DNA of 64,000 nt from Bradymonadia bacterium (GTDB taxonomy: Bacteria; Myxococcota_A; Bradymonadia; UBA7976; UBA1532): positions 32,001-96,000 of the forward strand of contig JBKAGE010000036.1 of assembly GCA_046290225.1 (NCBI GenBank), read 5' to 3'. A program made the translations under genes and the position numbers. Each line of letters starts with the position of its first letter. Positions within the stretch are counted from its first letter, which is position 1. The notes beneath the pieces are model-generated. The model was given only the letters and a program-made list of their open reading frames with translations. It did no database searches and was not told the origin of the DNA. Of the stretch, positions 1 through 55,626 are shown piece by piece.

Positions 1-549
1 TGCGGCTCCTTCATCTGCATCGGTGACGGCAACGGCGGTGGCGTCTGCTCTCAGGACTGCAGCGCCGTCAACCCCTGCCCCGACAACTGGCGCTGCCAGA
101 ACACGATCAATGGAGGCGCCACCTGCTTCCCGCCGAACGAGCCCGTGGGTGGCGCTGGCGGTGGTGGTGGCACAGGTGGTGGTGCAGGCGGTGCCGGTGG
201 CAATGCAGGTGCTGGCGGCGGCAACGCAGGCGCCGGCGGTGCTGGTGGCGGTAACGCAGGTGCAGGTGGGGCCGGCGGTGGTGCAGGAGGCGCTGGTGGC
301 GGCAATGCAGGTGCTGGTGGCGGCAACGCAGGTGCCGGAGGTGGTGCAGGTGGCGCCCCCGTCGGTGGTGGCGTCGGCGGTGGCGCTGGTGATCCGGGCA
401 GCTTCGATGGTGGCGTCGAGGGGGGTGTCGTACGCAGGAACGAGGGTGGCGGAGGCGGCGGCTGCATGGCTATGCCGGCCAGAGCCAACCCCTGGTCCCT
501 CGCCCTTTTGCTGGTCAGTTTGGGCGCCGTGCTGCGGCGCCGGCGGTGA
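1..549 (+). CDS. Partial (5' truncated) secreted Cys-rich protein with Gly/Ala-rich linker and MYXO-CTERM-like C-terminal anchor
   Basis: Frame 1 is open from base 1 (CGSFICIGDGNGGGVCSQDCSAVNPCPDNWRC...), followed by GGNAGAGG repeats. It ends GGGGGC-x8-WSLALLLVSLGAVL-RRRR (GC motif, TM helix, basic tail). Confidence 0.8.
   Translation, partial: CGSFICIGDGNGGGVCSQDCSAVNPCPDNWRCQNTINGGATCFPPNEPVGGAGGGGGTGGGAGGAGGNAGAGGGNAGAGGAGGGNAGAGGAGGGAGGAGGGNAGAGGGNAGAGGGAGGAPVGGGVGGGAGDPGSFDGGVEGGVVRRNEGGGGGGCMAMPARANPWSLALLLVSLGAVLRRRR
148..410 (+). repeat. Degenerate Gly/Ala-coding tandem repeats (GGNAGAG units)
   Basis: Repeated ggcggcaacgcaggtgctggt-like units inside the CDS linker. Confidence 0.8.
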
Positions 550-1199
550 ATGCACACTCTGCAGTGAGGGTCCAGGTCCACACAGCAGGCGAATCTCTGG
601 AGGCGATCTTGAGCCGATTCTCTCTCAACTCGATTCTGCTCGGCGCTCTGATGTGCGCCCCAGCCGTCGTACACCTCGCGCCCCAGCAGGCCGATGCCAC
701 GGTGATGAAGGCGCTGTCTCTCGATCAGATGGTGAAGCAGTCGGACGTCATCGTGCGCGGTGAGGTCGTGGCCCAGCACAGCGCGTGGAACGAGGCGGGC
801 AACCGCATCTACACCGTCACTGAGCTGAAGGTGATGGAGCCCCTCAAAGGGCAGGCCACCTCAGAGACGATCATCAAGATCAGGCAGCTCGGCGGCACTG
901 TGGACGGCATCACCCAGAACATCGCTGGCAACGCGCTGCTCTCTACAGGAGAAGAGGTGGCGATCTTCCTCAGGGCTGATGCTGAGAAGTCGCTGCACTA
1001 TGTGGTGGGTATGGCCCAGGGCAAATACACCATCGACCGCTCGAGCGGGACGCCGATGGTGGTGCGCCAGATGCACGGTCTGAGCTTCACCCGTCCAGGT
1101 GTGAAGACCCTCGCCGACGCCCCCAAGCCCACGGGCAAGACCACCTCGTGGGCCGATCTGAAGGCCCAGATTACGGCAGCTCAGGCACCACCACGCTGA
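546..1199 (+). CDS. Secreted hypothetical protein
   Basis: Signal-like hydrophobic segment followed by 'ATVMKALSLDQMVKQSDVIVRGEV...RQLGG...GMAQGKY'. The start overlaps the upstream stop (GTGA); the true start may lie downstream. Confidence 0.7.
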   Translation: MNAHSAVRVQVHTAGESLEAILSRFSLNSILLGALMCAPAVVHLAPQQADATVMKALSLDQMVKQSDVIVRGEVVAQHSAWNEAGNRIYTVTELKVMEPLKGQATSETIIKIRQLGGTVDGITQNIAGNALLSTGEEVAIFLRADAEKSLHYVVGMAQGKYTIDRSSGTPMVVRQMHGLSFTRPGVKTLADAPKPTGKTTSWADLKAQITAAQAPPR

Positions 1200-37225: not shown

Positions 37226-37469
37226 CAACCTGAGCGTTGATGTCTCTGCTTGAGCTGCCGGCGACACACCTGATGTCTCAATGCCATTTTGCGCGCACAT
37301 AAAGGAACAACAATATGTACGATTCTCCTCCCTCATGTCTTCCATCTACCCACAGCCCCCCTTACACTCTTACCGCTGAGGTGACTTCATGTGTCTGGTC
37401 AGAGAGCCTCTGACAATACATGCGTAGAGCAAATGATTGTGTTGCATATCGGGTCGAGGAATTTTTTAC

Positions 37470-40400
37470 ATGTTCAATCTGAACTCAGGGTCGAGCGGGC
37501 GCGCCTGGCGAGTCGCGCTGATGCTCGTGGGCGGCTTTGCCGCGAGCGCCCCAATGACGGTCTCTGCCGAACACCAGTGTGTGGTGCAGGTAGATGGCAC
37601 TGTGAAGTGTTGGGGTCTAAACAACTATGGTCAGCTCGGCCAGGGTGATTCGCACAATCGGGGCACGGAGAGCCCCGAGATGTACGACGCCCTGCTCGAC
37701 ATCAACCTGGGGACAGGACGCACCAGTACACAACTGGAAGCCAACCTCAACAGCACCTGTGCGATCCTCGACGACGGCGGGGTGAAGTGCTGGGGTTACA
37801 ATGGCTACGGTCAGCTCGGTCACGGCAACACCACCCAGCGCGGTGACGGCAGCAACGAGACCGGTGACAACCTGCCCTATACCGACCTCGGGACCGACGG
37901 TCAGGGCAACGATCTCGATGCCACAGATCTCGCAATGGGTGATCGGCACGTCTGTGCGGTGCTGAACAATGGTGGGGTCAAATGCTGGGGCAACAACGGC
38001 AGTGGCCGCCTTGGTCAGGGGAACACGACTCAACGGGGCGACGGTGCCAACGAGATGGGCGACAACCTCGCCTACACCGCTCTGGGTACCGGCTACACAG
38101 CAACTCAGATCGACGCCTTCACCACTCACACCTGCGCCGTGCTCAACACAGGCGAGCTCAAATGCTGGGGCTACAACAACTACGGCCAGCTCGGTCAGGG
38201 TGACACCAGCGCCCGAGGCACTCAACAGCCCGAGATGTTCGGCGCCCTTGGCGACATCAACCTCGGCACAGGCCGCACTGCCACCCACGTGGCTCAGGGT
38301 AATACCCACGCCTGCGCCATCCTGGATGATGGCACCTTGAAGTGCTGGGGTTACAATGGTTACGGCCAGCTCGGCCAGAACAACACCACTCAGCTCGGCG
38401 ATGGCGCCAACGAGACCGGTGACAACCTGCCCACCGTCGATCTCGGCACCGGCCGCTCAGCGACTCAGGTCACGCTCGCCGATCGTCACTCCTGCGCGAT
38501 CCTCGACGACGGCAGCGTAAAATGCTGGGGCTACAACGGCCACGGACAGTTGGGTCAGGGGAACACCACCCAACGCGGTGATGGCGCCAACGAGATGGGC
38601 GACAACCTCACCACCGTCGATCTCGGCACGGGCCGCACTGCGGCACAGATCGACGCCAACTACTATCACACCTGCGCTCTGCTCGATGACGGCACGGTGA
38701 AGTGTTGGGGCTACAACAGCAACGGTCAGCTTGGCCAGGGCGACACACGCAACCGCGGCACTCAAGCCCCTGAGATGAACAGCGCACTCGGCGACATCGA
38801 CCTCGGGAGCGGCACCTCGGTGGTCTCCCTCGAGGCGGGCGCCAACTACAGCTGCGCGATTCTCGACGACAACTCTCTGAAGTGCTGGGGGTACAACGGC
38901 TACGGCAACCTCGGCCAGGGCAACACCACTCAGCGCGGCGACGGCGCCAACGAGATGGGCGACAACCTCGCCGTCACTGATCTCGGTACTGGCCGCACTG
39001 CCACTGACGTCGGTGCAGGCCTCTACCACGCCTGCGCTCGCCTCGATGACGGCAGTGTGAAGTGCTGGGGTTACAACAACTATGGCCAGCTGGGTCAGGG
39101 GAACACCACCCAACGGGGCGACGGCGCCAACGAGATGGGTGACAACCTCGTCGCTGTCGATCTTGGCACCGGCCGTACCGCCACCGCCGTCGATGCATTC
39201 TCCAGCACCAGCTGTGCAGTCCTCGATGATGGCAGCGTAAAATGCTGGGGTTACAACGGTTACGGCCAGCTCGGCCAGGAGGACACCCTCAGCCGCGGCA
39301 ACCAGCAGCCTGAGATGTATGACGCCCTGCTCGACGTCGACCTCGGTACCGGCCGCACAGTGAGCAAGGTCGAGGGGGGTGAAGCCTTCAGCTGTGCAGT
39401 CCTCGACGACGGCAGTGTGAAGTGCTGGGGTTACAACGGTTACGGCAACCTCGGTCAGGGCAACACCACTCAGCGTGGCGACGGTGCCAACGAGATGGGC
39501 GACAACCTCGCCGTCACTGATCTCGGCACTGGCCGCACCGCCACTGACGTCGGCCTCGGCCGCTATCACGCCTGTGCCCTGCTCGACGATGGCAGCGTGA
39601 AATGCTGGGGTTACAATGGCTACGGCCAGCTGGGCCAGGGCAACACCACCCAACGGGGCGACGGCGCCAACGAGATGGGCGACAACCTCGTCGCTGTCGA
39701 TCTTGGCACCGGCCGCACCGCCACCGCCGTCGACGCCATGGGCGACTTCAGCTGCGCCCTGCTCGATGATGGCAGTGTGAAGTGCTGGGGTTACAACGGC
39801 TACGGCAACCTCGGTCAGGAAGACACGCTCTCTCGCGGCACCCAGCAGCCAGAGATGTACGGTGCCCTCGACGATGTGAACCTGGGGACTGGCCGAACGG
39901 TCCAGCACGCGGCGGTGGGCAACCGCCACAACTGTGTGATCCTCGATGACGACACGGTGAAGTGCTGGGGCTACAACGGCTACGGCAACCTCGGTCAGGG
40001 CAACACCAGCGCCCGTGGCGACAGCGCCACCGAGATGGGCGACAACCTCGCTGTCACCGATCTCGGCACTGGCCGCACGGCGCAGCAGCTCGCTGCCGGT
40101 GAAGATCACGCCTGTGCCCTGCTCGACGACAACTCGATCAAGTGCTGGGGCCGCAACAACTATGGCCAGCTGGGTCAGGGGAACACCACCCAACGGGGCG
40201 ACGGCGCCAACGAGATGGGCGACAACCTCGCCGCCGTCGATCTTGGCGTGGGGCGTACCGCTACGGCCATCGACGCCCGAGGTGGCCAGACCTGCGCCAT
40301 CCTCGACACCGGTGACATGAAGTGCTGGGGCTACAATGGATACGGCCAGCTCGGCCAGGGCGATACCAACGCCCGTGGCAACACCCTCCCGGAGCGGTTC

Positions 40401-43400
40401 GGCTTCATCGACGATGTAGACGTGGGCACTGGTCGTACCCTGCAGCAGGTTGAGACCTCCGGGCAGCACATCTGCGCTCTGCTCGACGACGGCCAGGTGA
40501 AGTGCTGGGGCTACAACGCCCAAGGGCAGCTCGGGTTGAACACCACGGGCAACCGCGGCGACTCAGTGAGCGAGCTGGGCGACAACCTCGCCTACGCCAT
40601 CCTGGGCAACGATCCTCAGGGCAGCCCCTGGACTGCCACGGACATCGGCGCCGGTTACCGTCACAGTTGTGCATTGCTGAGCAATGGCGAGGTGAAGTGC
40701 TGGGGCCACAACAACTACGGCCAGCTCGGCATCGGCAACACCACCCAGACGGGGGACAACGCCAACGAGATGGGCGACAACCTCGCCACCGTCGATCTCG
40801 GCACCGGCCGCACCGCCACCGACATCGACGTGCGCTTCTCCACCACCTGCGCCACCCTCGACACCGGTGACATGAAGTGCTGGGGCTACAACGGATACGG
40901 CCAGCTCGGCCAGGGCGACACCAACAGTCGCGGCACTCAGCCCGAGGAGATGTTCGACAGCCTCGAAGACATCAACGTGGGCACGGGTCGCACCTTCGAC
41001 TGGATCGAGACCGGTGGCTACTTCACCTGTGGCCTGCTCGACAATGATCTCCTGAAGTGCTGGGGCCGCAACAACCGTGGCCAGCTCGCTCAGGGCAACA
41101 GCACCACCCGCGGCGACGGCACCAACGAGATGGGTGACAACCTCGCTTATGCCAGCCTGGGCACCGGCCGCACGGTGCAGAGCGTCGGCACCGGCCTGCA
41201 GCACGCCTGCGCGCTGCTGGACAATGGTCAGGTGAAGTGCTGGGGCTACAACGGCCATGGCAACCTCGGCCTCGGCAACACCACATACATCGGAGACGCC
41301 GTCAGCGAGATCGGCGACAACATGCAGGCCGTGGACCTGGGCACCGGCCGCACGGCCACCCAACTCTGGGTGGGGCCGTACCACAGCTGTGCTCGACTCA
41401 ATACGGGGGAGACCAAGTGCTGGGGGCTGAACAACTATGGTCAGCTCGGCTACGGAGACACTGCCTACCGTGGTGACGGCGGCAACGAGATGGGCGACAA
41501 CCTGCCGGCGGTGGACGTCGGCACGGGCCGCACCATCGTCGAAATGGCCCTGGGCCAGCAGCACAGCTGCGCACGCCTCGACAACGGCACGGTGAAGTGC
41601 TGGGGCCGCAACAACTTCGGCAACCTCGGCCAGGGCAACACCACCACCCGCGGCGATGGCGCCAACGAGATGGGCGACAACCTCGCCATCACCAACCTCG
41701 GCACCGGGCGCACCGCCACCCACATCGAGGCGGGCTACTATCACACCTGCGCCATTCTGGATAACGGCGACACCAAGTGCTGGGGCTACAACAACCAGGG
41801 GCAGCTCGGCTACGGCAACACCACCAGTCTGGGCACGAACGCTGGCCACATGGGCGACGGCCTCGCCGCCGTCGATCTTGGCACTGGCCTCACTGCGGTC
41901 AGCCTCGGCGCCTTCGGCAGCCACACCTGCGCGGTGCTCAGCGACGCCACGGTGAAGTGCTGGGGTGAGAACAACAATGGCGAGCTCGGCATCGGCACCA
42001 CCGACAACCGCGGTGATGCCGCCAACGAGATGGGTGACAACCTGCCCCGCGCCCGCATCCCCGCCGATACGGCCGTGGTGCAGGTCTCCGGTGGGTACAA
42101 CCAGACCTGCGCCCGCTACGCCGACGGCACGGGCAAGTGCTGGGGCTACAACGGCTACGGCCTCCTCGGCTACGAAGACACCGTTCAGCGCGGCGACATC
42201 TCATATGCCGTGGGCGACGAGCTGCCCTCGATCGACCTGGGCACAGGTCGCACGGTGGCGCAGAGCAGCGTGGGCTATCACCACGTGTGTGCGCTCCTCG
42301 ACGACAACTCCATCAAGTGTTGGGGTCGAAACGATCTCGGGCAGCTGGGTCAAGGGAACAACACCCAACGCGGTGACGGCGCCAACGAGATGGGCGACAA
42401 CCTCGCCGCCGTCGATCTCGGCACCGACAACGGCACCCCCTTCGTGGTGACCAAGCTCGTCTCGGGCCACTATCACAACTGTGCACTCTTCAACGACGGC
42501 CGCGCCAAGTGCTGGGGCTACAACAACAGCGGCCAGCTCGGCATCGAGAGCACCAGCACCCGCGGCACCAGCGCCACCCACATGGGCGACAACCTCGCCT
42601 TCGTGAACGTGGGCGCCGGCCGCACCATCACGGACATCGACGCCGGCGGCAACCACACCTGCGCCACCCTCGACGACAACACCGTCAAGTGCTGGGGTGA
42701 GAACAACAACGGCGAGCTCAACCTCGGCAGCAGCGACAACCGAGGCGATGGCGCCAATGAGATGGGCGACAACCTGCTCACCGCCGACATCATCTACGAC
42801 CGGCCGCTTGCCGGTGTCATCGCCGGCGAGAACCACAGCTGCGCCATCTTCAACGACGGCAACATGCAGTGCTGGGGCTACAACGGCCATGGCCAGCTGC
42901 TCCGGGGCGACACCACCCAGATCGGTGATCTGGGCTACGCCATCGCCGACGATCTGCGCCCCATCCTCCTGGGCACTGGCCGCACCGTCTCTGCTGTGTC
43001 GATGGGCACGCATCACACCTGCGCGCTGCTCGACGACAACACCGTCAAGTGCTGGGGCCGTAACGATCTCGGCCAGCTGGGTCAGGGCAACAACACTCAG
43101 CGGGGCGACGGCATCAACGAGATGGGTGACAACCTCGCCGCCGTCGATCTCGGCACTGACGGCGGTGTCCCCTTCGTCATCAGCCAGCTCGTCTCTGGCG
43201 ATCATCACAACTGCGTGCGGTTCAACGACGGCCGGGTGAAGTGCTGGGGCTACAACGTCTACGGTCAGCTCGGCATCGAGAACAACAGCAACCGCGGCAC
43301 CAGCGCCACCCACATGGGCGACAACCTCGCCTTCGTCGATCTCGGCACCGGCCGTACCGCCACCCACATCGAGGCGGGACACAACCACACCTGCGCCACC

Positions 43401-46400
43401 CTCGATGACAACTCGGTGAAGTGTTGGGGTTACAACAACGGTGGCCAGCTCGGCCTCGGTGATACAGCCAACCGCGGCGACAACGCCGACGAGATGGGGG
43501 ATGATCTCGCACCTGCGAAGATCCTCTCCATTGGTCGGGCGCCGGCGTACACCTTCTCGGGTGCCACCCACACCTGCGTGGCCTACGACGACGGCAACGT
43601 AAAGTGCTGGGGCAGCAACGGCAGCGGTCGCCTCGGTTATGGCGACTCGTTGAGCCGCGGTGACGCCACTGGTGGTGCCGGTGACGATCTCGACGGCATC
43701 GCCCTGGGCACTGGCCGCACCGCGGTCCAGCTCTCTGTGGGCTATCACCACGTGTGTGCACTGCTCGACGACAACAGCGTCAAGTGCTGGGGCCGAAACG
43801 ATCTCGGCCAGCTGGGTCAGGGCAGCAACACTCAGCGGGGCGACGGCATCAACGAGATGGGCGACAACCTCGCCGCCGTCGATCTCGGCACTGACGGCGG
43901 CAACCCCCTCGTGGTGAGCCAGCTGATCTCCGGTGCCCACCACAACTGCGTGCGGTTCAATGACGGCCGGGTGAAGTGCTGGGGTTATAACGTCTACGGT
44001 CAGCTCGGCATCGAGAACAACAGCAACCGCGGCACCAGCGCCACCCACATGGGCGACAACCTCGCCTTCGTCGATCTCGGCACCGGCCGCACCGCCACCC
44101 ACATCGAGGCGGGCTACCATCACACCTGCGCCACCCTCGACGACGAGACGGTGAAGTGCTGGGGCTACAACAACGGCGGCCAGCTCGGTCGCGGTGACAC
44201 CCACAACCGCGGCGACAACGCCAGCGAGATGGGTGACGATCTCGAGACGGTGAAGCTGTTCTTCCACCGGCCTCCGGTGGCCACCGCTGGCGGCAACACC
44301 CACAGCTGCATGGTGTTCAATGACGGCAACATCAAGTGTTGGGGCAGCAACAGCAACGGCCGCCTCGGCTACGGTGACACCCTCAGCCGCGGCGACAACA
44401 CCGGTGGGCTCAGTGATGATCTCGAGCCCATCGATCTCGGCACTGGGATCACGGCCACCGACGTCGCCGTGGGCTACTACCACGCATGTGCCTTGCTCGC
44501 CGACAACCAGGTGAAGTGCTGGGGCTACAACGCATATGGCCAGCTCGGCTTTGGCGGTACAGCCCAGACCGGCGACAGCCTCAACGAGATGGGCGACAAC
44601 CTCGGCCATGCCCTCCTCGGCACCGACAACGGCAACCCGTTGCAGGTGTCACAGCTCGTCTCCGGCAACCACCACATGTGTGCTCTCTTCGGCGGCACAG
44701 CCGCTGGCCAGGTGAAGTGCTGGGGCTACAACGGCCATGGTCAGCTCGGTTACGGCAACACCAACCACCGCGGTGATGGTGGCGTCGGCGAGCTCGGCGA
44801 CAACCTGCCCTTCGTCGATCTCGGTACGGGGCGCTCGGCCACCTTCCTCACCGCTGGGGCCAACCACACCTGCGCAGTGCTCGACAATGCGCGGGTGAAG
44901 TGCTGGGGCTACAACGGCAACGGCCAGCTCGGCCTGCTCGACACGGTGAGCCGCGGTGACGGCGCCGACGAGATGGGCGACAACCTCGAGTACGCCAAGA
45001 TCCCCACCAGCCGCCCAGTGGTGGCCCTGAGCGCCGGCGACAACCACACCTGCGCCATCTACGACAATGGCACCTCGAAGTGCTGGGGCAGCAACAGCAA
45101 CGGCCGTCTCGGCTATGGCGACACGCTCAGCCGGGGTGACAACAGCGGCGGTCTCGGCGACGATCTCGATCCTGTGGCCCTGGGCACCAACGCCCAAGGC
45201 GATCCCCTGCTCGCGACTCAGGTGGCGGCGGGCTACACCCACAGCTGCGCCCTGCTCGACAACGGCCGGGTGAAGTGCTGGGGCTACAACGGTTATGGCA
45301 ACCTCGGCACCGGCAACACCACTCAGTACGGCGACAGCGCCAACGAGATGGGCGACAACCTGCCCTTCGTGGACCTCGGCACCGACAACCAGGGGGACCC
45401 ACTGCTCGCCACCAAGGTCACTGCTGGCACCTACTTCAGCTGCGCGCTGCTGGAGAACAACACGGCGAAGTGCTGGGGCTATAACGGCCACGGTCAGATG
45501 GCCCAAGGCGACACCAACCACCGCGGTGATGCCGGTGCCTCGGAGCTCGGCGACAACCTGCCGGCCATCAACTTCGGCACCGGTCTCTATCCCGTGGACA
45601 TCGAGGCGTACTACTACCACGCCTGCGCCACCCTCAACGACGACACGGTGAAGTGCTGGGGCTACAACGCCCATGGCCAGCTCGGTCTGCTCGAGACCAA
45701 CAGCCGGGGTGACATCGTGCAGGAGATTGGCGACGGCATGGAGCGGCCGAAGATCATCTTCGATCGCGACGTGGTTCAAGTCATCCCAGGCTATCTGAGC
45801 ACCTGTGTGCGATTCGACGACGGCAACGTGAAGTGCTGGGGCAACAACGGCAACGGCCAGCTGCTCCAGGGCGACACGCTCAGCCGGGGCGACAACAGCG
45901 GCGGCCTCGGCGACGATCTCGAGCCTATCGATCTCGGCTTCAACAGCCAGGGGCAGCGACACACAGTCTCTCAGGTGACCACCGGCTACCTGTTCACCTG
46001 TGCGCTGCTCGACGATGGCAACGTGAAGTGCTGGGGTTACAACGGCAACGGCCAGCTCGGCCTCGGTCACACCAGCACCCGCGGCAACAGCCAGAACCAG
46101 ATGGGCGACAACCTGCCCTATGTCGACCTCGGCACCGGGCGCACCGCCACCCGCATCGAGGCGGGCTACTATCACGTGTGTGCCCAGCTCGATAACGACG
46201 AGGTGAAGTGTTGGGGCCACAACAGCAGCGGCCGCCTCGGCCAGGGGAACACCACCCAGCGGGGTGACGGCGCCAACGAGATGGGCGACAACCTCGCCGC
46301 AGTGTCGTACGGCGACGGACTCCAGTCGAAGGCTGTGCGCATCGGCTCCTACCACGGCTGCAGCATCGTCGAAGACAACGAGGGCACCACCACTGGGGTG

Positions 46401-49334
46401 AAGTGCTGGGGCTACAACGCCCATGGTCAGCTCGGTGTGCTGGCCACGGATCACCGCGGTGACGCCGCGGATGAGATGGGTGACGATCTCGAGTACGCCA
46501 AGATCCCCATGGATCGCGAAGTGGTCGACCTTGCCCTCGGCGAGTACCACAGCTGTGTGCGCCTCGCGGACGGCAATGTGAAGTGCTGGGGCTACAACGG
46601 CAACGGCCAGCTCGGCTACGGTGACACCCGATCCCGCGGCGACACCAGCGGTGGCATCGGGCGAGATTTGCCCACGGTGGATCTCGGCGACGGCGTGGTC
46701 GTGGTCTCGGTGGCTCAAGGCTACCGACACACCTGCGCCCTCACCGAAGAGGGTCTCGTGAAGTGCTGGGGTTACAACGGCAACGGCCAGCTCGGCCAGG
46801 GCCACTCAAGCAACCGCGGCAATTCCCGGAGCCACATGGGCGACAACCTGCCCTATGTCGATCTCGGCACGGATCGCACGGCGATCTCCATCACCGCGGG
46901 CTACAGCCACACCTGCGCATTGCTGGACAACAACCGGGTGAAGTGCTGGGGCTACAACGGACACGGCAACCTTGGCCAGGGCAACACCACCCAGCGCGGC
47001 GACGGCAGCAACGAGATGGGTGACAACCTCGCCTACACTGATCTCGGAGATGGCTTCGCTGCCACGGCCATCAGCGCCGGCGACTACCACACCTGTGCGA
47101 TCTTGAACGACGGCGCGGTGAAGTGCTGGGGCTACAACGGCAACGGCAGCCTCGGCCTCGGCAACACCGCCTACCGCGGTGACGGCGCCAACGAGATGGG
47201 CAACAACCTGCCTGCTGTGGATCTCGGCACTGGCCGCACGGCGCAGTTCATCTCCTCCGGCGGCTATCACACCTGCGCGGTGCTCGACGACAACAGCGTC
47301 AAGTGCTGGGGGTACAACGGCCACGGCAACCTCGGCCAGGGCAACACCACCCAGCGCGGCGACGGCAGCAACGAGATGGGCGATGCCCTGTTGGTGACCG
47401 ATCTGGGGCCGAACCGTCGGGCCCTCGCCATCAGCGCCGGCACCTATCACACCTGCGTCATCCTCGACAGCGGCGACACCAAGTGCTGGGGCTACAACGG
47501 CTATGGTCAGCTCGGCACTGGCAACACCAGCTACTACGGCGACAGCGCCAACGAGATGGGCGACAACCTGCCTGCCGTCAACCTCGGCGCCGGTCGCACC
47601 GCCCAGTCGGTCATGGCCCACGTGAACCACAGCTGCGCCGCCCTCGACGACAACAGCGTCAAGTGCTGGGGCCGCAACAACTACGGCCAGCTCGGCCAGG
47701 GCAGCACCCAGCAGATCGACAACAGCGTCGAGTTCGGCGACAACCTCGTCGCCGTGGATCTCGGCCTCGACACCATCGACCCCCGCAACGCCCTCAACAA
47801 CGGCAACCCCGTACCCTGTGACGACACGGATGAGGACGGCATCTGCGATGGCGGTGACAACTGCCCGCTGGTGGCCAACCTCGACCAGGCTGATCGGGAC
47901 TTCGACGGCATCGGCAACGTCTGCGACGTGTGCCCCGATGATGCGTTGAACGACGGGGACAACGACGGTCACTGTGGCTCGGTGGACAACTGCCCCGTCA
48001 TCGCCAACGCCGATCAGGCCAACGCGGACGGAGATGCCTTCGGTGATGTCTGCGACGCGTGCACCTTCGACGCCGACAACGACATCGACGCCGACGGCAT
48101 CTGCGGCGACGTGGACAACTGCCCCACGCTGTCCAACCCCGACCAGCGGGACGACGACGGCAACGGTCTCGGCGATGCCTGTGTAGCCACCGACGCCGAG
48201 ATCGGTCCCGACACCAACATCCACCCCTCGGTCATCATCAGCTCCGGCTGTGTCATCGGGAATGCAGTGCAGATCGGCGCCAACACGCTGCTCAAGCCCA
48301 ACTGCCGCCTCGACAGCAACGTGGTGGTGGGGGCTGACGTGGTCATCGGCATCAGCACTCACCTGCACGCCTACGCCAGCGTCGGTGACGGGTCCAACAT
48401 CGGCGACGGCGCCGAGATCGGCCAGTTCAGCCACTTTGGCGCCAACACGCTGGTGGCGGCAGACGTGGCCATCGGCCGCCGGGTCACCGTGGGTGACAAC
48501 GCCCAGATCGCCGGCACCATGGGCAACTCCATCGGCATCGGCGACGACTTCATCCTCGGCGCTGGCTCCGACTGGCAGAACAACATGACCGCTGGGGATC
48601 GGGTGACGATCGGCGCCAACTCGGTCATCGAGTCGAACACCCGCATCGGCAACGATGTGGTCATCGGCGACGAAGGCTTCGCGGGTGACTACACCACCAT
48701 CGAGAGCGATGTGACCTTCGGTGTGAGGGCCTACCTCGCCGACGGTACCGAGATCGGTAACCGGGTGGTCACTGGGGACGACTTCGAGTCTCGAGGCTTC
48801 GTCCGCGACGACATCACCGCCGGCGACAATGTCTTCATCGGCGTACAGGGCACCGTGAGCCCTGGTGCCCAGCTCGCCGACAACAGCTCGGTGAGCAACT
48901 ACGCCACCGTGGGCCCCGACGCGGTGCTCGCCGCCGACGTACGTGTCTACGACCGCGCAGTGGTGGGTGCCCGGGTCAACCTCGGCGCCAACACTGTGGT
49001 GCTCTTCAACGCTCAGATAGGCGACGACTTCACCATGGGCTCCGACGGCATCATCGATGATGGATCCATCGTCGGTGACAACTGCACCTTCGGCACCAAC
49101 AGCCGGGTCTGGCCCTACGTCACCATCGGCGACAACGGCAACTTCGGCTCTGGGGTGATCATCGGCCTGAACGCCGAGGTGGGCGTCGACGCCCTCTTCG
49201 AGAACAACGTCACCGTGTGGGCCGAGACGGTCATCGGGGATCGCGTGATTCTGCGTCAGGGCTCCGAGGTTCGCTACCAGGCCACCGTGGCCAGCGACGC
49301 CGAGGTGGGCGCCAACCAGATCGTCGAGCGCTGA
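37470..49334 (+). CDS. Giant secreted RCC1-repeat protein (56 blades) + TSP3 Ca-binding repeats + hexapeptide left-handed beta-helix
   Basis: Sec-like signal peptide; 56 'H-x-C...[KQ]CWG-x-N-x-x-GQLG' repeats (manual count); DNCP/DxDxDG repeats at ~47817-48185; [IV]-G-x-x-x-x hexapeptides at ~48195-49330. Confidence 0.93.
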   Translation: MFNLNSGSSGRAWRVALMLVGGFAASAPMTVSAEHQCVVQVDGTVKCWGLNNYGQLGQGDSHNRGTESPEMYDALLDINLGTGRTSTQLEANLNSTCAILDDGGVKCWGYNGYGQLGHGNTTQRGDGSNETGDNLPYTDLGTDGQGNDLDATDLAMGDRHVCAVLNNGGVKCWGNNGSGRLGQGNTTQRGDGANEMGDNLAYTALGTGYTATQIDAFTTHTCAVLNTGELKCWGYNNYGQLGQGDTSARGTQQPEMFGALGDINLGTGRTATHVAQGNTHACAILDDGTLKCWGYNGYGQLGQNNTTQLGDGANETGDNLPTVDLGTGRSATQVTLADRHSCAILDDGSVKCWGYNGHGQLGQGNTTQRGDGANEMGDNLTTVDLGTGRTAAQIDANYYHTCALLDDGTVKCWGYNSNGQLGQGDTRNRGTQAPEMNSALGDIDLGSGTSVVSLEAGANYSCAILDDNSLKCWGYNGYGNLGQGNTTQRGDGANEMGDNLAVTDLGTGRTATDVGAGLYHACARLDDGSVKCWGYNNYGQLGQGNTTQRGDGANEMGDNLVAVDLGTGRTATAVDAFSSTSCAVLDDGSVKCWGYNGYGQLGQEDTLSRGNQQPEMYDALLDVDLGTGRTVSKVEGGEAFSCAVLDDGSVKCWGYNGYGNLGQGNTTQRGDGANEMGDNLAVTDLGTGRTATDVGLGRYHACALLDDGSVKCWGYNGYGQLGQGNTTQRGDGANEMGDNLVAVDLGTGRTATAVDAMGDFSCALLDDGSVKCWGYNGYGNLGQEDTLSRGTQQPEMYGALDDVNLGTGRTVQHAAVGNRHNCVILDDDTVKCWGYNGYGNLGQGNTSARGDSATEMGDNLAVTDLGTGRTAQQLAAGEDHACALLDDNSIKCWGRNNYGQLGQGNTTQRGDGANEMGDNLAAVDLGVGRTATAIDARGGQTCAILDTGDMKCWGYNGYGQLGQGDTNARGNTLPERFGFIDDVDVGTGRTLQQVETSGQHICALLDDGQVKCWGYNAQGQLGLNTTGNRGDSVSELGDNLAYAILGNDPQGSPWTATDIGAGYRHSCALLSNGEVKCWGHNNYGQLGIGNTTQTGDNANEMGDNLATVDLGTGRTATDIDVRFSTTCATLDTGDMKCWGYNGYGQLGQGDTNSRGTQPEEMFDSLEDINVGTGRTFDWIETGGYFTCGLLDNDLLKCWGRNNRGQLAQGNSTTRGDGTNEMGDNLAYASLGTGRTVQSVGTGLQHACALLDNGQVKCWGYNGHGNLGLGNTTYIGDAVSEIGDNMQAVDLGTGRTATQLWVGPYHSCARLNTGETKCWGLNNYGQLGYGDTAYRGDGGNEMGDNLPAVDVGTGRTIVEMALGQQHSCARLDNGTVKCWGRNNFGNLGQGNTTTRGDGANEMGDNLAITNLGTGRTATHIEAGYYHTCAILDNGDTKCWGYNNQGQLGYGNTTSLGTNAGHMGDGLAAVDLGTGLTAVSLGAFGSHTCAVLSDATVKCWGENNNGELGIGTTDNRGDAANEMGDNLPRARIPADTAVVQVSGGYNQTCARYADGTGKCWGYNGYGLLGYEDTVQRGDISYAVGDELPSIDLGTGRTVAQSSVGYHHVCALLDDNSIKCWGRNDLGQLGQGNNTQRGDGANEMGDNLAAVDLGTDNGTPFVVTKLVSGHYHNCALFNDGRAKCWGYNNSGQLGIESTSTRGTSATHMGDNLAFVNVGAGRTITDIDAGGNHTCATLDDNTVKCWGENNNGELNLGSSDNRGDGANEMGDNLLTADIIYDRPLAGVIAGENHSCAIFNDGNMQCWGYNGHGQLLRGDTTQIGDLGYAIADDLRPILLGTGRTVSAVSMGTHHTCALLDDNTVKCWGRNDLGQLGQGNNTQRGDGINEMGDNLAAVDLGTDGGVPFVISQLVSGDHHNCVRFNDGRVKCWGYNVYGQLGIENNSNRGTSATHMGDNLAFVDLGTGRTATHIEAGHNHTCATLDDNSVKCWGYNNGGQLGLGDTANRGDNADEMGDDLAPAKILSIGRAPAYTFSGATHTCVAYDDGNVKCWGSNGSGRLGYGDSLSRGDATGGAGDDLDGIALGTGRTAVQLSVGYHHVCALLDDNSVKCWGRNDLGQLGQGSNTQRGDGINEMGDNLAAVDLGTDGGNPLVVSQLISGAHHNCVRFNDGRVKCWGYNVYGQLGIENNSNRGTSATHMGDNLAFVDLGTGRTATHIEAGYHHTCATLDDETVKCWGYNNGGQLGRGDTHNRGDNASEMGDDLETVKLFFHRPPVATAGGNTHSCMVFNDGNIKCWGSNSNGRLGYGDTLSRGDNTGGLSDDLEPIDLGTGITATDVAVGYYHACALLADNQVKCWGYNAYGQLGFGGTAQTGDSLNEMGDNLGHALLGTDNGNPLQVSQLVSGNHHMCALFGGTAAGQVKCWGYNGHGQLGYGNTNHRGDGGVGELGDNLPFVDLGTGRSATFLTAGANHTCAVLDNARVKCWGYNGNGQLGLLDTVSRGDGADEMGDNLEYAKIPTSRPVVALSAGDNHTCAIYDNGTSKCWGSNSNGRLGYGDTLSRGDNSGGLGDDLDPVALGTNAQGDPLLATQVAAGYTHSCALLDNGRVKCWGYNGYGNLGTGNTTQYGDSANEMGDNLPFVDLGTDNQGDPLLATKVTAGTYFSCALLENNTAKCWGYNGHGQMAQGDTNHRGDAGASELGDNLPAINFGTGLYPVDIEAYYYHACATLNDDTVKCWGYNAHGQLGLLETNSRGDIVQEIGDGMERPKIIFDRDVVQVIPGYLSTCVRFDDGNVKCWGNNGNGQLLQGDTLSRGDNSGGLGDDLEPIDLGFNSQGQRHTVSQVTTGYLFTCALLDDGNVKCWGYNGNGQLGLGHTSTRGNSQNQMGDNLPYVDLGTGRTATRIEAGYYHVCAQLDNDEVKCWGHNSSGRLGQGNTTQRGDGANEMGDNLAAVSYGDGLQSKAVRIGSYHGCSIVEDNEGTTTGVKCWGYNAHGQLGVLATDHRGDAADEMGDDLEYAKIPMDREVVDLALGEYHSCVRLADGNVKCWGYNGNGQLGYGDTRSRGDTSGGIGRDLPTVDLGDGVVVVSVAQGYRHTCALTEEGLVKCWGYNGNGQLGQGHSSNRGNSRSHMGDNLPYVDLGTDRTAISITAGYSHTCALLDNNRVKCWGYNGHGNLGQGNTTQRGDGSNEMGDNLAYTDLGDGFAATAISAGDYHTCAILNDGAVKCWGYNGNGSLGLGNTAYRGDGANEMGNNLPAVDLGTGRTAQFISSGGYHTCAVLDDNSVKCWGYNGHGNLGQGNTTQRGDGSNEMGDALLVTDLGPNRRALAISAGTYHTCVILDSGDTKCWGYNGYGQLGTGNTSYYGDSANEMGDNLPAVNLGAGRTAQSVMAHVNHSCAALDDNSVKCWGRNNYGQLGQGSTQQIDNSVEFGDNLVAVDLGLDTIDPRNALNNGNPVPCDDTDEDGICDGGDNCPLVANLDQADRDFDGIGNVCDVCPDDALNDGDNDGHCGSVDNCPVIANADQANADGDAFGDVCDACTFDADNDIDADGICGDVDNCPTLSNPDQRDDDGNGLGDACVATDAEIGPDTNIHPSVIISSGCVIGNAVQIGANTLLKPNCRLDSNVVVGADVVIGISTHLHAYASVGDGSNIGDGAEIGQFSHFGANTLVAADVAIGRRVTVGDNAQIAGTMGNSIGIGDDFILGAGSDWQNNMTAGDRVTIGANSVIESNTRIGNDVVIGDEGFAGDYTTIESDVTFGVRAYLADGTEIGNRVVTGDDFESRGFVRDDITAGDNVFIGVQGTVSPGAQLADNSSVSNYATVGPDAVLAADVRVYDRAVVGARVNLGANTVVLFNAQIGDDFTMGSDGIIDDGSIVGDNCTFGTNSRVWPYVTIGDNGNFGSGVIIGLNAEVGVDALFENNVTVWAETVIGDRVILRQGSEVRYQATVASDAEVGANQIVER
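37570..47770 (+). repeat. Array of 56 ~180-bp RCC1-like coding repeats with 540-bp and ~735-bp higher-order periodicity
   Basis: Recurrent aagtgctggggctacaac...gagatgggcgacaacctc; near-identical blocks offset by 540 bp (38880 vs 39420) and by 735 bp (43047 vs 43782). Confidence 0.95.
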
Positions 49335-49448
49335 TGTCGGGGCCGCTCGCGCCCTGACCCCCTCCGACAGCATCTCTTCTCAAGGCACAGCCGGGTCATG
49401 TTAGGTTGCCCCGTCTGTTGATCTGCCCAGTCACGAGAAGAGCCTCCC

Positions 49449-51443
49449 ATGGACGACACCACTCTCGCAGCCGCCCTCGCGGGCACCCCCTACGCTGGCG
49501 ATTTGCCCGGCCTCGACGCACTCATCGCCGGCGTGCATGCCGCCCCCCGGCCACGGGATCCCAGAGCCTGGATGGTTCTGGCAGGCGTCGATCCGACGAG
49601 CGAAGCCGCTGATCATCTGCAGGCCCGCTTCGAGGCGCTGACTCCCGCAGCCATCGAGGCCCCCTCGCCTGCAGCCCGCGTGGAGGCCCTGCGAGCGGCC
49701 ATGAGTGCCCGTGATCTCGCAGGCTTCGTCATCCCCCGGGCTGACGCCCACCAGGGGGAGTATGTACCTTCCTGCGCCGAGCGCCTCGCCTGGCTCACGG
49801 ACTTTACGGGCTCTGCCGGGGCCGCGGTGGTGCTTCGAGAGAAGGCGGCAGTCTTCGTCGACGGTCGATACACCCTTCAGGTCACCGATCAGGTCGATCT
49901 CGATCTGTTCGAGACGCTGCACCTCATCAATGATCCCCACGTGCGTTGGGCCGCAGATCAGCTGAGCGCTGGCGATCGCCTGGGGTACGATCCACGCCTG
50001 CACACGCTGAGCTGGATCGAGCGGGCCACGGCCACCCTCGAGGCCGTCGGCGCCACCCTGGTTCCCGTGGACGCCAACCTGGTGGACGAGGCCTGGGGTG
50101 ATGCCCGACCACCGGCCCCCATCTCTCCGGTCATCTCACAGAGCATCGAGCTCGCTGGCGAGTCGAGCGCGGACAAGCGGGTGGCCATCGGCGAAGCCCT
50201 CGCCCTGGCGAAGATCCCGGCGGACGCCACCGTGCTCACCCGACCAGAGTCCATCGCATGGCTGCTCAACGTCCGCGGCGCCGATGTGCCGCGTACACCA
50301 CTGCCCTTGTCATACGCCATCGTGCGCAGCACCGGCGCAGTGCAGTGGTTCATCGATCCCCGCAAGCTCACCCCTGCTGTCACCGAAGGCCTCGACGCCG
50401 AGGTCACAGTGCACCCCATCGAGGATCTCGGCTCTGCCCTTCAAGCCCTCGGCGGGACCGTGCAGGTCGACCCGGCTCAGGACAGCGGCTGGATCGGCGA
50501 TCACCTCCGTGCCGGTGGGGCCACCCTGAGCAAGGCTCAAGATCCGACCCTGATGCCCAAGGCCACCAAGAACGCCGCGGAGCAGGCGGGCACCCGGGCT
50601 GCGCACCTGAGAGACGGCGTGGCGCTGGTGAAGTTCCTCGCCTGGATCGACGCCCACGGCCCCTCGGGTTCGATCACCGAGCTTCAGGCCGTGGATCAGT
50701 TGTACGCCTTCAGGGCCGAGAGCGAGCTGCTGCGGGATCTCAGCTTCGACACCATCTCGGGCAGCGGCCCCAACGGCGCCATCGTGCACTACCGGGTCAC
50801 CGAAGAGAGCGATCGCCCCCTGGGACCCGGAGAGCTGTACCTCGTGGACAGCGGCGCTCAGTACCCTGACGGCACCACCGACGTGACCCGCACTGTGGCC
50901 ATCGGCGAGCCCACGGACGAGATGCGGCACCGATTCACCCGGGTACTGCAGGGGCACATCGCTCTGGGCTGCGCCTGCTTCCCCGAAGGCACCACGGGCA
51001 GTCACCTCGACGTGCTGGCCCGTATGCCGCTCTGGCGCGATGGTCTCGATTACGATCACGGCACGGGTCACGGCGTGGGCAGCTACCTCTCGGTGCACGA
51101 GGGGCCTCAACGCATCTCTCAGCGAATGAGCACCGTGCCATTGCAGGTGGGCATGATCTGCTCCAACGAGCCAGGCTTCTATCAGACCGACGGCTACGGC
51201 ATCCGCATCGAGAACCTGGTGCTGGTGGTGCCTGCCGAGGGGCTGCTGGGCGATCGGGCGATGCTGAGCTTCGAGACCCTGACCCTGGCGCCGATCGATC
51301 GACGCCTCATCGACACCGCGATGCTCACCGAGAGCGAGCGGGCATGGGTCGACGCCTATCACGCTCGGGTGCGTGAGGCCCTCAGCCCCCACCTCGACGC
51401 AGAGACGGTGCGCTGGCTCGAGGCGGCCACTCAGGCGCTGTGA
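49449..51443 (+). CDS. pepP: Xaa-Pro aminopeptidase (aminopeptidase P, M24B)
   Basis: DAHQGEY, FTGSAG, DGRY, DSGAQY.DGTTDVTRT, HGTGHGVG.YL.VHEGP, SNEPG and GIRIENL. Confidence 0.93.
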   Translation: MDDTTLAAALAGTPYAGDLPGLDALIAGVHAAPRPRDPRAWMVLAGVDPTSEAADHLQARFEALTPAAIEAPSPAARVEALRAAMSARDLAGFVIPRADAHQGEYVPSCAERLAWLTDFTGSAGAAVVLREKAAVFVDGRYTLQVTDQVDLDLFETLHLINDPHVRWAADQLSAGDRLGYDPRLHTLSWIERATATLEAVGATLVPVDANLVDEAWGDARPPAPISPVISQSIELAGESSADKRVAIGEALALAKIPADATVLTRPESIAWLLNVRGADVPRTPLPLSYAIVRSTGAVQWFIDPRKLTPAVTEGLDAEVTVHPIEDLGSALQALGGTVQVDPAQDSGWIGDHLRAGGATLSKAQDPTLMPKATKNAAEQAGTRAAHLRDGVALVKFLAWIDAHGPSGSITELQAVDQLYAFRAESELLRDLSFDTISGSGPNGAIVHYRVTEESDRPLGPGELYLVDSGAQYPDGTTDVTRTVAIGEPTDEMRHRFTRVLQGHIALGCACFPEGTTGSHLDVLARMPLWRDGLDYDHGTGHGVGSYLSVHEGPQRISQRMSTVPLQVGMICSNEPGFYQTDGYGIRIENLVLVVPAEGLLGDRAMLSFETLTLAPIDRRLIDTAMLTESERAWVDAYHARVREALSPHLDAETVRWLEAATQAL

Positions 51444-55615: not shown

Positions 55616-55626
55616 GATCGAATGTC

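What the first reader, a model, noticed from the sequence alone, without database searches (positions are those of the whole stretch)
37470..47770. Matryoshka 'out-and-back' stack of eight nested RCC1 beta-propellers in a giant secreted protein
Seen in sequence: 56 [KQ]CWG blades by manual count, exactly 8x7. A variant loop (RG[TN]xx[PE]E[MR] instead of RGDGANEM) follows blades 1, 4, 7, 10, 13, 16 and 19 (nt 37674, 38229, 38769, 39309, 39849, 40389, 40944; spacing 540-555). A different variant loop (GDISYAVGDE, GDLGYAIADD, GDATGGAGDD, GDNTGGLSDD, GDNSGGLGDD x2, GDTSGGIGRD) follows blades 26, 30, 34, 38, 42, 46 and 50 (nt 42192, 42924, 43659, 44391, 45135, 45888, 46638; spacing 732-753). Each of these is preceded by a blade with an atypical 'AKIP/KIIF'-type linker. 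Established: RCC1-family propellers have 7 blades. Inference: the 7 outbound and 7 return junctions pair so that every unit totals 7: P1=1+51-56, P2=2-4+47-50, P3=5-7+43-46, P4=8-10+39-42, P5=11-13+35-38, P6=14-16+31-34, P7=17-19+27-30, and P8=20-26 is the only contiguous one. Each propeller would be inserted into a loop of the previous one, giving a doubly linked rod with both termini at the base and P8 at the tip. A linear 7+7+... arrangement cannot explain period-3 and period-4 markers. I am not aware of this architecture being described for RCC1 proteins.
Basis: partly seen in the sequence, partly recalled or inferred. Interest (0 to 1): 0.95.

Follow-up and report, generated by a model that had tools for sequence, protein, structure and literature searches.

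The report
Giant 56-blade RCC1 protein, possibly nested
A secreted 3,954-residue bacterial protein is built from 56 seamless RCC1 propeller blades arranged as seven 3-blade units followed by seven 4-blade units, a pattern that fits eight propellers plugged into one another, but the fold could not be confirmed here.

Summary
One ORF (37470..49334, +) has 56 of 56 [KQ]CWG blades at about 60-aa spacing.

A paralogue in the same genome has 77 blades (11x7) with the same grammar, 10 A then 10 B. A truncated relative (67% identity) from another metagenome keeps the 4-blade array and the final six blades.

Equal unit numbers do not discriminate. 3a+4b is a multiple of 7 exactly when a equals b modulo 7, so a plain linear array also needs them.

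Evidence for nesting is circumstantial:
- unit sizes are 3+4=7;
- there is no period-7 signal;
- the termini look like a split closing blade;
- recent duplications in the paralogue are mirror-placed (r=0.72);
- the family's plainly linear paralogue has linkers every 7 blades.

The one usable AlphaFold2 model (pLDDT 77) closes a ring from blades 23-29.

My odds: full matryoshka 0.40; outer propeller split 1+6 around consecutive rings 0.25; plain linear 0.20.

Earlier notes of this scan describe similar, unconfirmed nested RCC1 readings in phage proteins. I found no paper describing this.

The parts
37470..37568 (+). Predicted Sec signal peptide (MFNLNSGSSGRAWRVALMLVGGFAASAPMTVSA)
   Evidence: Read from the sequence: a basic n-region, a hydrophobic core and VSA before EHQ. 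No signal-peptide program was available.
37569..37646 (+). Blade 1. It starts directly at strand B (EHQCVV), so it lacks an innermost strand A. The first A-type connector follows it.
   Evidence: Comparison with the strand pattern of the AF2 model, where each 60-aa block has strand A at +27-32, B at +36-41 and C at +46-50. The 24 single-propeller paralogues have the same truncated first blade.
37647..40916 (+). Six 3-blade units u1-u6 (blades 2-19), each opened by an A-type connector (RG[TN]xxPEM...)
   Evidence: DNA identity at lag 3 is 61-87%.
40917..42176 (+). Central seven blades 20-26. They open with the seventh A connector and end with the first K-type blade (26) and the first B connector.
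   Evidence: In the AF2 model these blades are not a ring of their own.
42177..46622 (+). Six 4-blade units v1-v6 (blades 27-50). Each is opened by a B-type connector (GDxxGGxGDD) and closed by a K-type blade.
   Evidence: DNA identity at lag 4 reaches 92%.
46623..47702 (+). Last six blades 51-56, entered through the seventh B connector
   Evidence: The same 'B connector then six blades then tail' is kept in P0002 and in the truncated relatives P0373 and P0480.
47703..47801 (+). C-terminal tail: one more connector plus a strand-A-like segment with no blade after it. It is a candidate closing strand for blade 1.
   Evidence: Sequence comparison with the singles' tails and with the linear paralogue, where each ring ends in such a tail before a Gly-rich linker. 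This is inference, not a structure.
47802..48176 (+). Cys/Asp-rich thrombospondin type-3-like repeats
   Evidence: Pfam TSP_3 scores 37.5 bits against a cut-off of 25, best stretch residues 3530-3570.
48177..49334 (+). Left-handed beta-helix (hexapeptide repeats), stop codon included
   Evidence: Pfam Hexapep scores 111.6 bits against a cut-off of 27. LbH_EIF2B scores 58.8 against 54. The module has 149 matches in the genome.

Best explanation
The gene encodes a secreted giant surface or extracellular protein: signal peptide, 56 RCC1 blades, Ca-binding TSP3 repeats and a C-terminal left-handed beta-helix. Most likely, but unproven, the 56 blades fold into eight seven-bladed propellers that are inserted one into another. 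Blade 1 plus blades 51-56, closed by the C-terminal tail strand, would form the base propeller, built like the single-propeller paralogues. The chain would leave it through an A connector and lay down three blades of each successive propeller (u units). It would complete the innermost propeller (20-26), then return and add the missing four blades of each propeller (v units) through B connectors. A and B connectors would then always be propeller-to-propeller crossings, and the K-type blade would always be blade 7 of a ring. The result would be a doubly tethered row of eight side-by-side rings with both termini at the base, probably a long adhesin- or fibre-like binding rod. What is shown: blade count, markers, family membership, paralogue grammar. 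What is inferred: secretion, velcro closure, the nesting, the rod shape and the function.
For: (1) The array is 1 + 7x3 + 7x4 + 6 blades with three connector types in fixed places. The paralogue P0002 is 1 + 10x3 + 10x4 + 6 = 77. Unit sizes summing to 7 is not required by any linear model. I estimate about 1 in 6 by chance.
(2) There is no lag-7 similarity (48% and 46%, the lowest values), against peaks at lags 3 and 4. The same genome's plainly linear six-propeller paralogue (C77, 3537 aa) shows period 7. Gly-rich or TSP3-like linkers are placed exactly between a tail strand A and the next three-strand first blade.
(3) Giants and all 24 singles share a first blade without strand A and a tail with a spare strand A. 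So blade 1 and blade 56 should be ring neighbours, and the first A and last B connectors must then be ring crossings. The other copies are most simply read the same way.
(4) In P0002 the similarity matrix of 3-units matches that of 4-units under mirror pairing. r is 0.72, and 0.1% of 20,000 permutations reach it; same-order pairing gives 0.21. DNA tracts of recent duplication are blades 14-25 and 36-55.
(5) By eye, A and B connectors are absent from the 24 singles. By regex the periodic pattern is present in 3 of 252 stored homologues, which are the two giants and the window's own database copy.
(6) The AF2 model is not an in-phase 7+7. Its closed ring is internal, with 6 blades before it and 1 after.
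Against: The AF2 model's ring is blades 23-29. UVR8 8gqe_B gives Z 25.0, rmsd 2.6 A and 368 aligned residues over model 388..815. Blades 26 and 27 therefore sit in one ring, and 20-26 is not a ring. 0 of 50 rows and 0 of 50 lie inside model residues 186-605.
Equal unit numbers are forced modulo 7 by any seven-blade model, so they are not independent support.
Mirror pairing is not significant in this protein itself (r = 0.32, p = 0.15; same-order 0.34). In P0002 one unit (v1) has no similar partner. A conservative null that only slides the clusters gives roughly 1 in 14, by my estimate.
A, B and K connectors are the same length as ordinary ones, so there is no extra linker.
Position-specific homology of blades to the singles' seven positions could not be detected.
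The arithmetic also allows other parses. For example, the AF2-like parse 6+1 / 4+3 extends to eight rings as [1,2-4,54-56], [5-10,46], [11-16,38], [17-22,30], [23-29], [31-37], [39-45], [47-53].
No multi-level nested propeller has been solved, as far as my searches show.
Confidence: 0.4

Rival explanations
1. One level of nesting only ('necklace'). Blade 1, blades 51-56 and the tail form a velcro-closed outer propeller as in the single-propeller paralogues. The 49 blades in between fold as seven ordinary propellers of consecutive blades (2-8, 9-15, 16-22, 23-29, 30-36, 37-43, 44-50). The period-3 and period-4 markers are then relics of unit duplications without a structural role.
For: It uses the same termini argument as the main reading. 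The ring found in the AF2 model, blades 23-29, is exactly one of these rings, which has a chance of about 1 in 7. Seamless 14-, 21- and 56-blade RCC1 arrays without special junctions are common in metagenomes, so ordinary connectors can evidently join rings.
Against: No sequence feature marks the boundaries 8|9, 15|16, 22|23 and so on, and lag-7 identity is the lowest. A and B connectors would have two different roles: a crossing at 1->2 and 50->51, and an intra-ring link elsewhere. The ring register in the model may be an artefact, because the 12 external rows of the alignment cover blades 18-29 only and 23-29 are the last seven covered. Growth by +3 and +4 blades would re-phase every ring between the two events.
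Confidence: 0.25
2. Plain linear array. Eight propellers form from consecutive blades (1-7, 8-14, ...), as in other tandem RCC1 proteins. The 3- and 4-blade periodicities only record unequal crossing-over of two sub-arrays. Selection merely keeps the total at a multiple of 7, which forces equal unit numbers.
For: Most large homologues are beads of 7 blades separated by linkers. Sequential folding of a secreted chain favours neighbours. Equal unit numbers are explained arithmetically. Near-identical neighbouring units (up to 95% protein identity; 96% DNA identity in P0002) show that unequal crossing-over or gene conversion is active.
Against: Blade 1 would lack strand A and the tail strand would be orphaned at opposite ends of the molecule, yet both are conserved in P0002, P0373 and P0480. 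The AF2 model did not choose 17-23 + 24-30. Unit sizes summing to 7 and the mirror-placed recent duplications in P0002 would be coincidences. The family's own linear member looks quite different.
Confidence: 0.2
3. Rings of other sizes or mixed, branched parses. Examples are 6- or 8-bladed rings within the halves, or the 6+1 / 4+3 parse suggested by the AF2 model. The protein could also be partly unclosed and only fold on a partner or with calcium.
For: Arithmetic allows several complete parses of both giants (my own enumeration). The fate of blades 17-22 and 30 in the model is unknown because no coordinates were given.
Against: The one ring that could be read superposes on seven-bladed UVR8 over 368 of 386 residues at 2.6 A. 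Both giants have totals divisible by 7, which is 1 in 49 by chance. Mixed parses give each connector type several roles.
Confidence: 0.1

Closest known systems
Single RCC1-like domains (human RCC1, plant UVR8, HERC2 RLDs, RPGR, BLIP-II)
   Same: They share the repeat family (Pfam RCC1, RCC1_2 and WD40_RLD) and the seven-bladed ring. The model matches UVR8 8gqe_B at Z 25.0, rmsd 2.6 A, 368 aligned residues and 26% identity; HERC2 RLD3 3kci at Z 23.0; RCC1 1a12 at Z 20.4; and BLIP-II 3qi0 at Z 18.4.
   Different: Those are single propellers of seven blades. Here 56 blades follow one another without any linker, in a 3-blade array then a 4-blade array. The protein is secreted and carries TSP3 and beta-helix modules.
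Trm734 (yeast) and DDB1-type triple WD40 propellers
   Same: They are a solved example of a complete propeller inserted inside another. In Trm734, BPB lies between strands c7 and d7 of BPA, and the N-terminal strand completes the last blade of BPC. I read passages of 'Overall structure' in PMC6847430.
   Different: Those are WD40 rather than RCC1 blades, with one level of insertion, explicit linkers and three propellers. The reading here needs seven (or ten) successive levels with connectors of ordinary length. Membership is not claimed; it is only a topological precedent.
Linear multi-propeller RCC1 proteins, including the same genome's C77 protein (3537 aa)
   Same: They share the blade type, and C77 has the same C-terminal TSP3 + beta-helix module. 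Many metagenomic giants have 7-blade groups.
   Different: Those show period 7 and linkers of 80-600 aa after every seventh blade. This protein and P0002 show periods 3 and 4, no period 7 and no linkers.
Giant phage RCC1 proteins noted earlier in this scan as 'nested propeller trees'
   Same: They are also seamless RCC1 arrays whose junction marks pair like brackets around multiples of seven blades (AI notes).
   Different: Those are phage tail-fibre-region proteins with branched parses and split strands. Here a bacterial chromosome encodes a strictly a^n b^n (unbranched) grammar. None of those notes reports a confirming 3D model, and I did not test them.

Membership tests
RCC1-like repeat beta-propeller (Pfam PF00415, PF13540, PF25390) | Repeats score above the curated cut-offs | tested here: met
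   WD40_RLD scores 1675.6 bits (cut-off 150, 13 stretches). RCC1_2 scores 1371.5 (cut-off 22, 54 stretches). RCC1 scores 563.8 (cut-off 21.7, 22 stretches).
RCC1-like repeat beta-propeller | Seven blades close into one ring | tested here: met
   Met for one ring, and only in a model. AF2 gives pLDDT 77. Blades 23-29 superpose on UVR8 at Z 25.0, 2.6 A and 368 of 386 residues, with Foldseek TMt 0.81-0.85. The other rings are not resolved.
Propeller-in-propeller insertion (Trm734 / DDB1 type) | A complete propeller lies in the chain between two parts of another propeller | tested here: inconclusive
The model has an internal closed ring with 6 blades before it and 1 after. Whether those 6+1 blades form the enclosing ring could not be read, because no coordinates were available.
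Propeller-in-propeller insertion (Trm734 / DDB1 type) | The outer ring is closed by strands from both chain ends (velcro) | not testable with these tools
   The only evidence is a sequence inference: the first blade lacks strand A and the tail has a spare strand A, in the giants, in 24 singles and in each ring of C77.
Linear tandem-propeller array | Period-7 similarity and/or a linker or split blade after every seventh blade | tested here: not met
   Lag-7 identity is 48% in P0001 and 46% in P0002, the lowest of lags 1-14. All 55 intervals are 60-67 aa. The feature is met by the paralogue C77.
Thrombospondin type-3 repeat (PF02412) | Profile match above the cut-off | tested here: met
   37.5 bits against a cut-off of 25, residues 3530-3570.
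Left-handed beta-helix / hexapeptide repeat (PF00132) | Profile match above the cut-off | tested here: met
   111.6 bits against a cut-off of 27, 6 stretches. LbH_EIF2B scores 58.8 against 54. Trimer formation was not tested.

The most novel reading that the evidence does not exclude
The protein and its 77-blade paralogue are seven- and ten-level 'matryoshka' stacks. Each seven-bladed RCC1 propeller is inserted between blades 3 and 4 of the previous one. The chain therefore follows an a^n b^n (context-free, bracket-like) grammar and grows by adding one 3-blade and one 4-blade unit near the tip. This would be the deepest recursive domain insertion known in any protein. It would also be a bacterial counterpart to the unconfirmed nested RCC1 proteins that this scan noted in phages.
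Probability: 0.4. Interest if true: 0.9.

Novelty: new variant of a known kind. Interest (0 to 1): 0.68.

Why it matters
If the nested reading is right, a protein chain can be folded by long-range bracket pairing. Blades 2-4 would find their partners about 2,700 residues later, seven to ten levels deep. That would be a new way to build a stiff, doubly tethered rod from a common repeat. It would also be a hard test case for folding pathways and for structure predictors, which are biased to neighbouring repeats. It would give a rule (3+4 units, A/B/K connectors) for recognising such proteins in sequence data. Even if the fold is linear, the strict u^n v^n layout kept in two paralogues (7/7 and 10/10) shows selection on blade number through paired +3/+4 changes. 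That is an unusual mode of repeat evolution.

Tried and rejected
(1) The AF2 run without an alignment on blades 17-30 gave pLDDT 32.6 and pTM 0.21, which is useless. One of the two fold jobs was lost this way.
(2) Complex prediction with blades 17-23 and 24-30 as two chains (alignments A4 and A5) returned 'no answer'. Scores were 0.43, 0.01 and 0.00 against a mark of 0.32, and the controls were not run. This is no evidence either way.
(3) A sliding-window self-alignment of 112 rows was staggered by MAFFT and discarded. A 105-row set of 6-blade 'closure-free' pieces piled onto blades 20-25 in a local MAFFT trial and was discarded.
(4) Mapping giant blades onto the seven positions of the 24 single propellers gave no position-specific signal: mean scores, split connector/strand scores, best hits. 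My idea that the K-type blade equals 'tail strand + first blade' was therefore not supported and was dropped.
(5) Searches for more complete family members found little:
- 120 and 150 listed database hits, with 252 stored proteins screened;
- 76 genome loci;
- 78 metagenome loci;
- 7 viral loci, listed but not examined;
- 40 relatives, where 3 genomes have matches in ORFs of 1379-2452 aa at 41-52% identity that I did not examine;
- 400 genomes of the phylum, with 0 matches at E <= 1e-150;
- 120 shorter proteins.
Only the truncated P0373/P0480 emerged.
(6) Type consensus per unit position shows type-specific features, for example the third blade of each 3-unit lacks the GxxH turn. Descent alone can explain these, so I did not count them.
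(7) Literature: three full-text searches found nothing on nested or recursive RCC1 propellers. One candidate, PMC9935623 (one passage read), concerns small inserts between blades and is irrelevant.
(8) Foldseek against the PDB gives no ranges and added nothing on topology.
Full report
WHAT IS THERE. The region is one gene. The frame 37437..49334 (+) is open for 3965 codons. The ATG at 37470 gives the 3954-aa form that the protein database holds as P0003. The N-terminus reads as a Sec signal peptide ending VSA|EHQ; this comes from the sequence only, as no program was available. Pfam finds RCC1-family repeats throughout: WD40_RLD 1675.6 bits, RCC1_2 in 54 stretches, RCC1 in 22. These are followed by a thrombospondin type-3 repeat region and a hexapeptide left-handed beta-helix. 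The long antisense ORFs across the gene are what a GC-rich repeat produces, and I did not treat them as genes.

There are 56 CWG motifs, and 56 of 56 are preceded by K or Q. All 55 intervals are 60-67 aa. 'A' loops (RG[TN]xxPEM-type) follow blades 1, 4, 7, 10, 13, 16 and 19. 'B' loops (GDxxGGxGDD-type) follow blades 26, 30, 34, 38, 42, 46 and 50. Each B loop is preceded by a blade whose connector has a hydrophobic second half, which I call K-type (7 of 7).

I used the strand positions of the later model as a ruler. In each 60-aa block, strand A lies at +27-32, B at +36-41 and C at +46-50, and strand D is the GQLG after CWG. On that ruler the variant loops are the first halves of inter-blade connectors, and every blade from 2 to 56 is intact. 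The layout is therefore blade 1, seven 3-blade units, seven 4-blade units and six blades (1+21+28+6). Blade similarity peaks at lags 3, 4, 8 and 12 and is lowest at lag 7.

RELATIVES. The window's genome (8.58 Mb, 83 contigs) holds a large family with the same C-terminal module: 149 matches. I found three groups.
- 24 proteins have a single seven-blade propeller.
- One 3537-aa protein on contig C77 has six propellers. These are clearly linear, with Gly-rich or TSP3-like linkers after every seventh blade.
- One giant on contig C44 equals P0002 (5195 aa, 53% identical).
P0002 has 77 blades = 11x7. Its A loops follow blades 1, 4..., 28 (10) and its B loops follow 35, 39..., 71 (10; the last is degenerate and was read by eye). 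Six blades and a tail follow.

Outside this genome, regex screening found the periodic A/B pattern in only 3 of 252 stored homologues: the two giants and the window's own database copy. It appeared in none of the multi-blade ORFs of 76 genome loci or of 78 metagenome loci. Among 107 further shorter proteins, one (P0373, 67% identical, ENA metagenome) reads B...B...B...B..... and then tail, TSP3 and beta-helix. Its cluster mate P0480 has five B junctions and then six blades. Both start inside a blade and are therefore truncated, so their 3-unit number is unknown. In 40 related genomes and 400 genomes of the phylum I found no close relative; these are samples, not proof of absence.

WHY EQUAL NUMBERS DO NOT DECIDE. 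P0002 meets this. However, 3a+4b is divisible by 7 exactly when a = b (mod 7). Any model that only demands whole seven-bladed rings therefore predicts the same. Both giants being multiples of 7 (1 in 49 by chance) shows selection for whole rings, not for nesting.

WHAT FAVOURS NESTING.
- Unit sizes 3 and 4 sum to 7, which no linear model requires.
- Nothing in either giant has period 7, although whole-ring duplication is the only neutral single step for a linear array. The family's own linear member looks quite different.
- In the 24 singles, in each ring of C77 and in both giants, the first blade starts at strand B right after the signal peptide or linker. The last blade is followed by one extra connector plus a strand-A-like segment. 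The natural reading is a velcro closure. In the giants this puts blade 1 and blade 56 in one ring, which makes the first A and the last K/B connectors true ring-to-ring crossings. Giving the other six (or nine) copies of each the same role is the most economical reading.
- In P0002 the units that were duplicated recently sit at mirror positions: 3-units u5-u8 (blades 14-25) and 4-units v1-v5 (blades 36-55). Matrix correlation under mirror pairing is 0.72, and 0.1% of 20,000 permutations reach it; same-order pairing gives 0.21.

Two cautions apply to the mirror result. Neighbouring repeats are always more alike, and a conservative estimate of the coincidence is about 1 in 14. In the window's own protein the test is not significant (0.32, p = 0.15).

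THE STRUCTURAL TEST. A fold of blades 17-30 without an alignment failed (pLDDT 32.6). For the second and last job I wanted an alignment that carries no information on which blades close a ring.

I chose 22 rows that MAFFT aligned collinearly:
- the query;
- the orthologous stretch of P0002;
- eight little-overlapping 14-blade windows of the two giants;
- twelve external 12-blade windows (blades 2-13 of 14- or 21-blade arrays), which contain no first/seventh-blade pair.

The model has mean pLDDT 77.0 and pTM 0.55. The lowest internal confidence is just after the A connector (residues 211-220, 57) and at the B connector (611-620, 64).

No coordinates are given, so I read the topology from aligned ranges. 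UVR8, which has seven intact blades, superposes at Z 25.0, 2.6 A and 368 of 386 residues on model residues 388..815. That span runs from strand A of blade 23 to the connector after blade 29. Targets with split first blades align at 347..773 or 405..833, which is what a closed ring 23-29 predicts for them.

The model therefore closes blades 23-29 and leaves 17-22 and 30 (6+1); their fate I could not read. It equally contradicts an in-phase 7+7. It coincides with the phase of a 'necklace' in which blade 1 and blades 51-56 close the outer ring and blades 2-50 form seven consecutive rings, a chance of about 1 in 7.

It may also be an artefact, for three reasons:
- the external rows cover blades 18-29, and 23-29 are the last seven covered;
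- predictors favour neighbouring repeats;
- only the top model was available.

I weight it as mild evidence against the exact matryoshka and against the plain linear array.

The AF2-like rule (6+1 and 4+3) can also be extended to a complete eight-ring parse of the whole protein. That shows how permissive the arithmetic is. Such a parse gives each connector type several roles and is less economical.

VERDICT ON MECHANISM. The protein is a secreted, probably calcium-stabilised multi-propeller protein of a family that this bacterium has expanded greatly. The propellers are most likely binding heads, and the TSP3 and beta-helix module is a common base; the function is inferred, not tested.

For the fold I put these odds:
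- full matryoshka, 0.40;
- one-level insertion with consecutive inner rings, 0.25;
- plain linear array, 0.20;
- other parses, 0.10.

COMPARISON WITH WHAT IS KNOWN. Single RCC1-like domains share the fold (Z 18-25). Insertion of a whole propeller into another is documented once per protein in WD40 proteins. In Trm734, BPB lies between strands c7 and d7 of BPA, and the N-terminal strand completes BPC (PMC6847430, passages read). Three full-text searches found no description of recursive or multi-level propeller nesting, or of RCC1 arrays with 3+4 grammar; subscription journals are not covered.

Earlier AI notes of this scan describe several phage giant RCC1 proteins read as nested propeller trees. 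None has a confirming model, and two state that the tests could not decide. So the idea has been seen before in the scan on other DNA. This is a bacterial, strictly unbranched case with a second paralogue obeying the same rule.

I rate it a new variant of a known kind (domain-in-domain propellers) and interesting, but unproven.

Noticed in passing
own genome, e.g. G000:C35:168-199 kb, C82:23-43 kb, C36:162-167 kb and 217-236 kb (outside the window): There is a very large paralogous family. The C-terminal TSP3 + hexapeptide beta-helix module has 149 matches in the 8.58-Mb genome. 24 of them are behind a single seven-blade RCC1 propeller, often in tandem gene clusters.
   Followed up: partly
G000:C77:~71960-82600 (locus L188): A 3537-aa paralogue has six seven-blade propellers separated by long Gly-rich runs and small Cys/Asp-rich (TSP3-like) inserts. 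These are placed between a tail strand and the next three-strand first blade. It is a clear linear contrast to the seamless giants.
   Followed up: partly
database proteins P0041 (3952 aa), P0036, P0016, P0023: Other metagenomic giants have seamless RCC1 arrays: 56 or 54 blades in a row, or 14-blade groups. None shows detectable periodicity at lags 1-14. How such arrays partition into rings is equally unknown.
   Followed up: no
P0373 / P0480 (ENA metagenome proteins): These are truncated relatives, 67% identical to the C-terminal third. They keep K-type blades, B connectors at period 4, six final blades, the tail, TSP3 and the beta-helix. Their gene calls begin at an internal Met inside a connector, which suggests contigs broken in the repeat.
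   Followed up: partly
window 35866-37089 (-), 49449-51443 (+), 51785-53359 (+), 53750-55873 (-): The flanking genes are a trypsin-like serine protease, an M24 aminopeptidase P and two GDSL-type lipases. The aminopeptidase's nearest named homologues are alphaproteobacterial (Azospirillum, about 57% identity). One unnamed relative is at 71%.
   Followed up: partly
window 37617-49373, minus strand: Long antisense ORFs (up to 855 aa) run across the whole gene. This is the expected by-product of a GC-rich, codon-biased repeat, and I did not treat them as genes.
   Followed up: no
window 38922-40181 and 42357-44195: There are gene-conversion-like tracts. Blades 9-10 versus 12-13 share 87% DNA identity, and blades 32-33 versus 36-37 share 90-92%. 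The junction blades next to them stay at 60-74%. Homogenisation spares the blades that carry the A, B and K connectors.
   Followed up: partly
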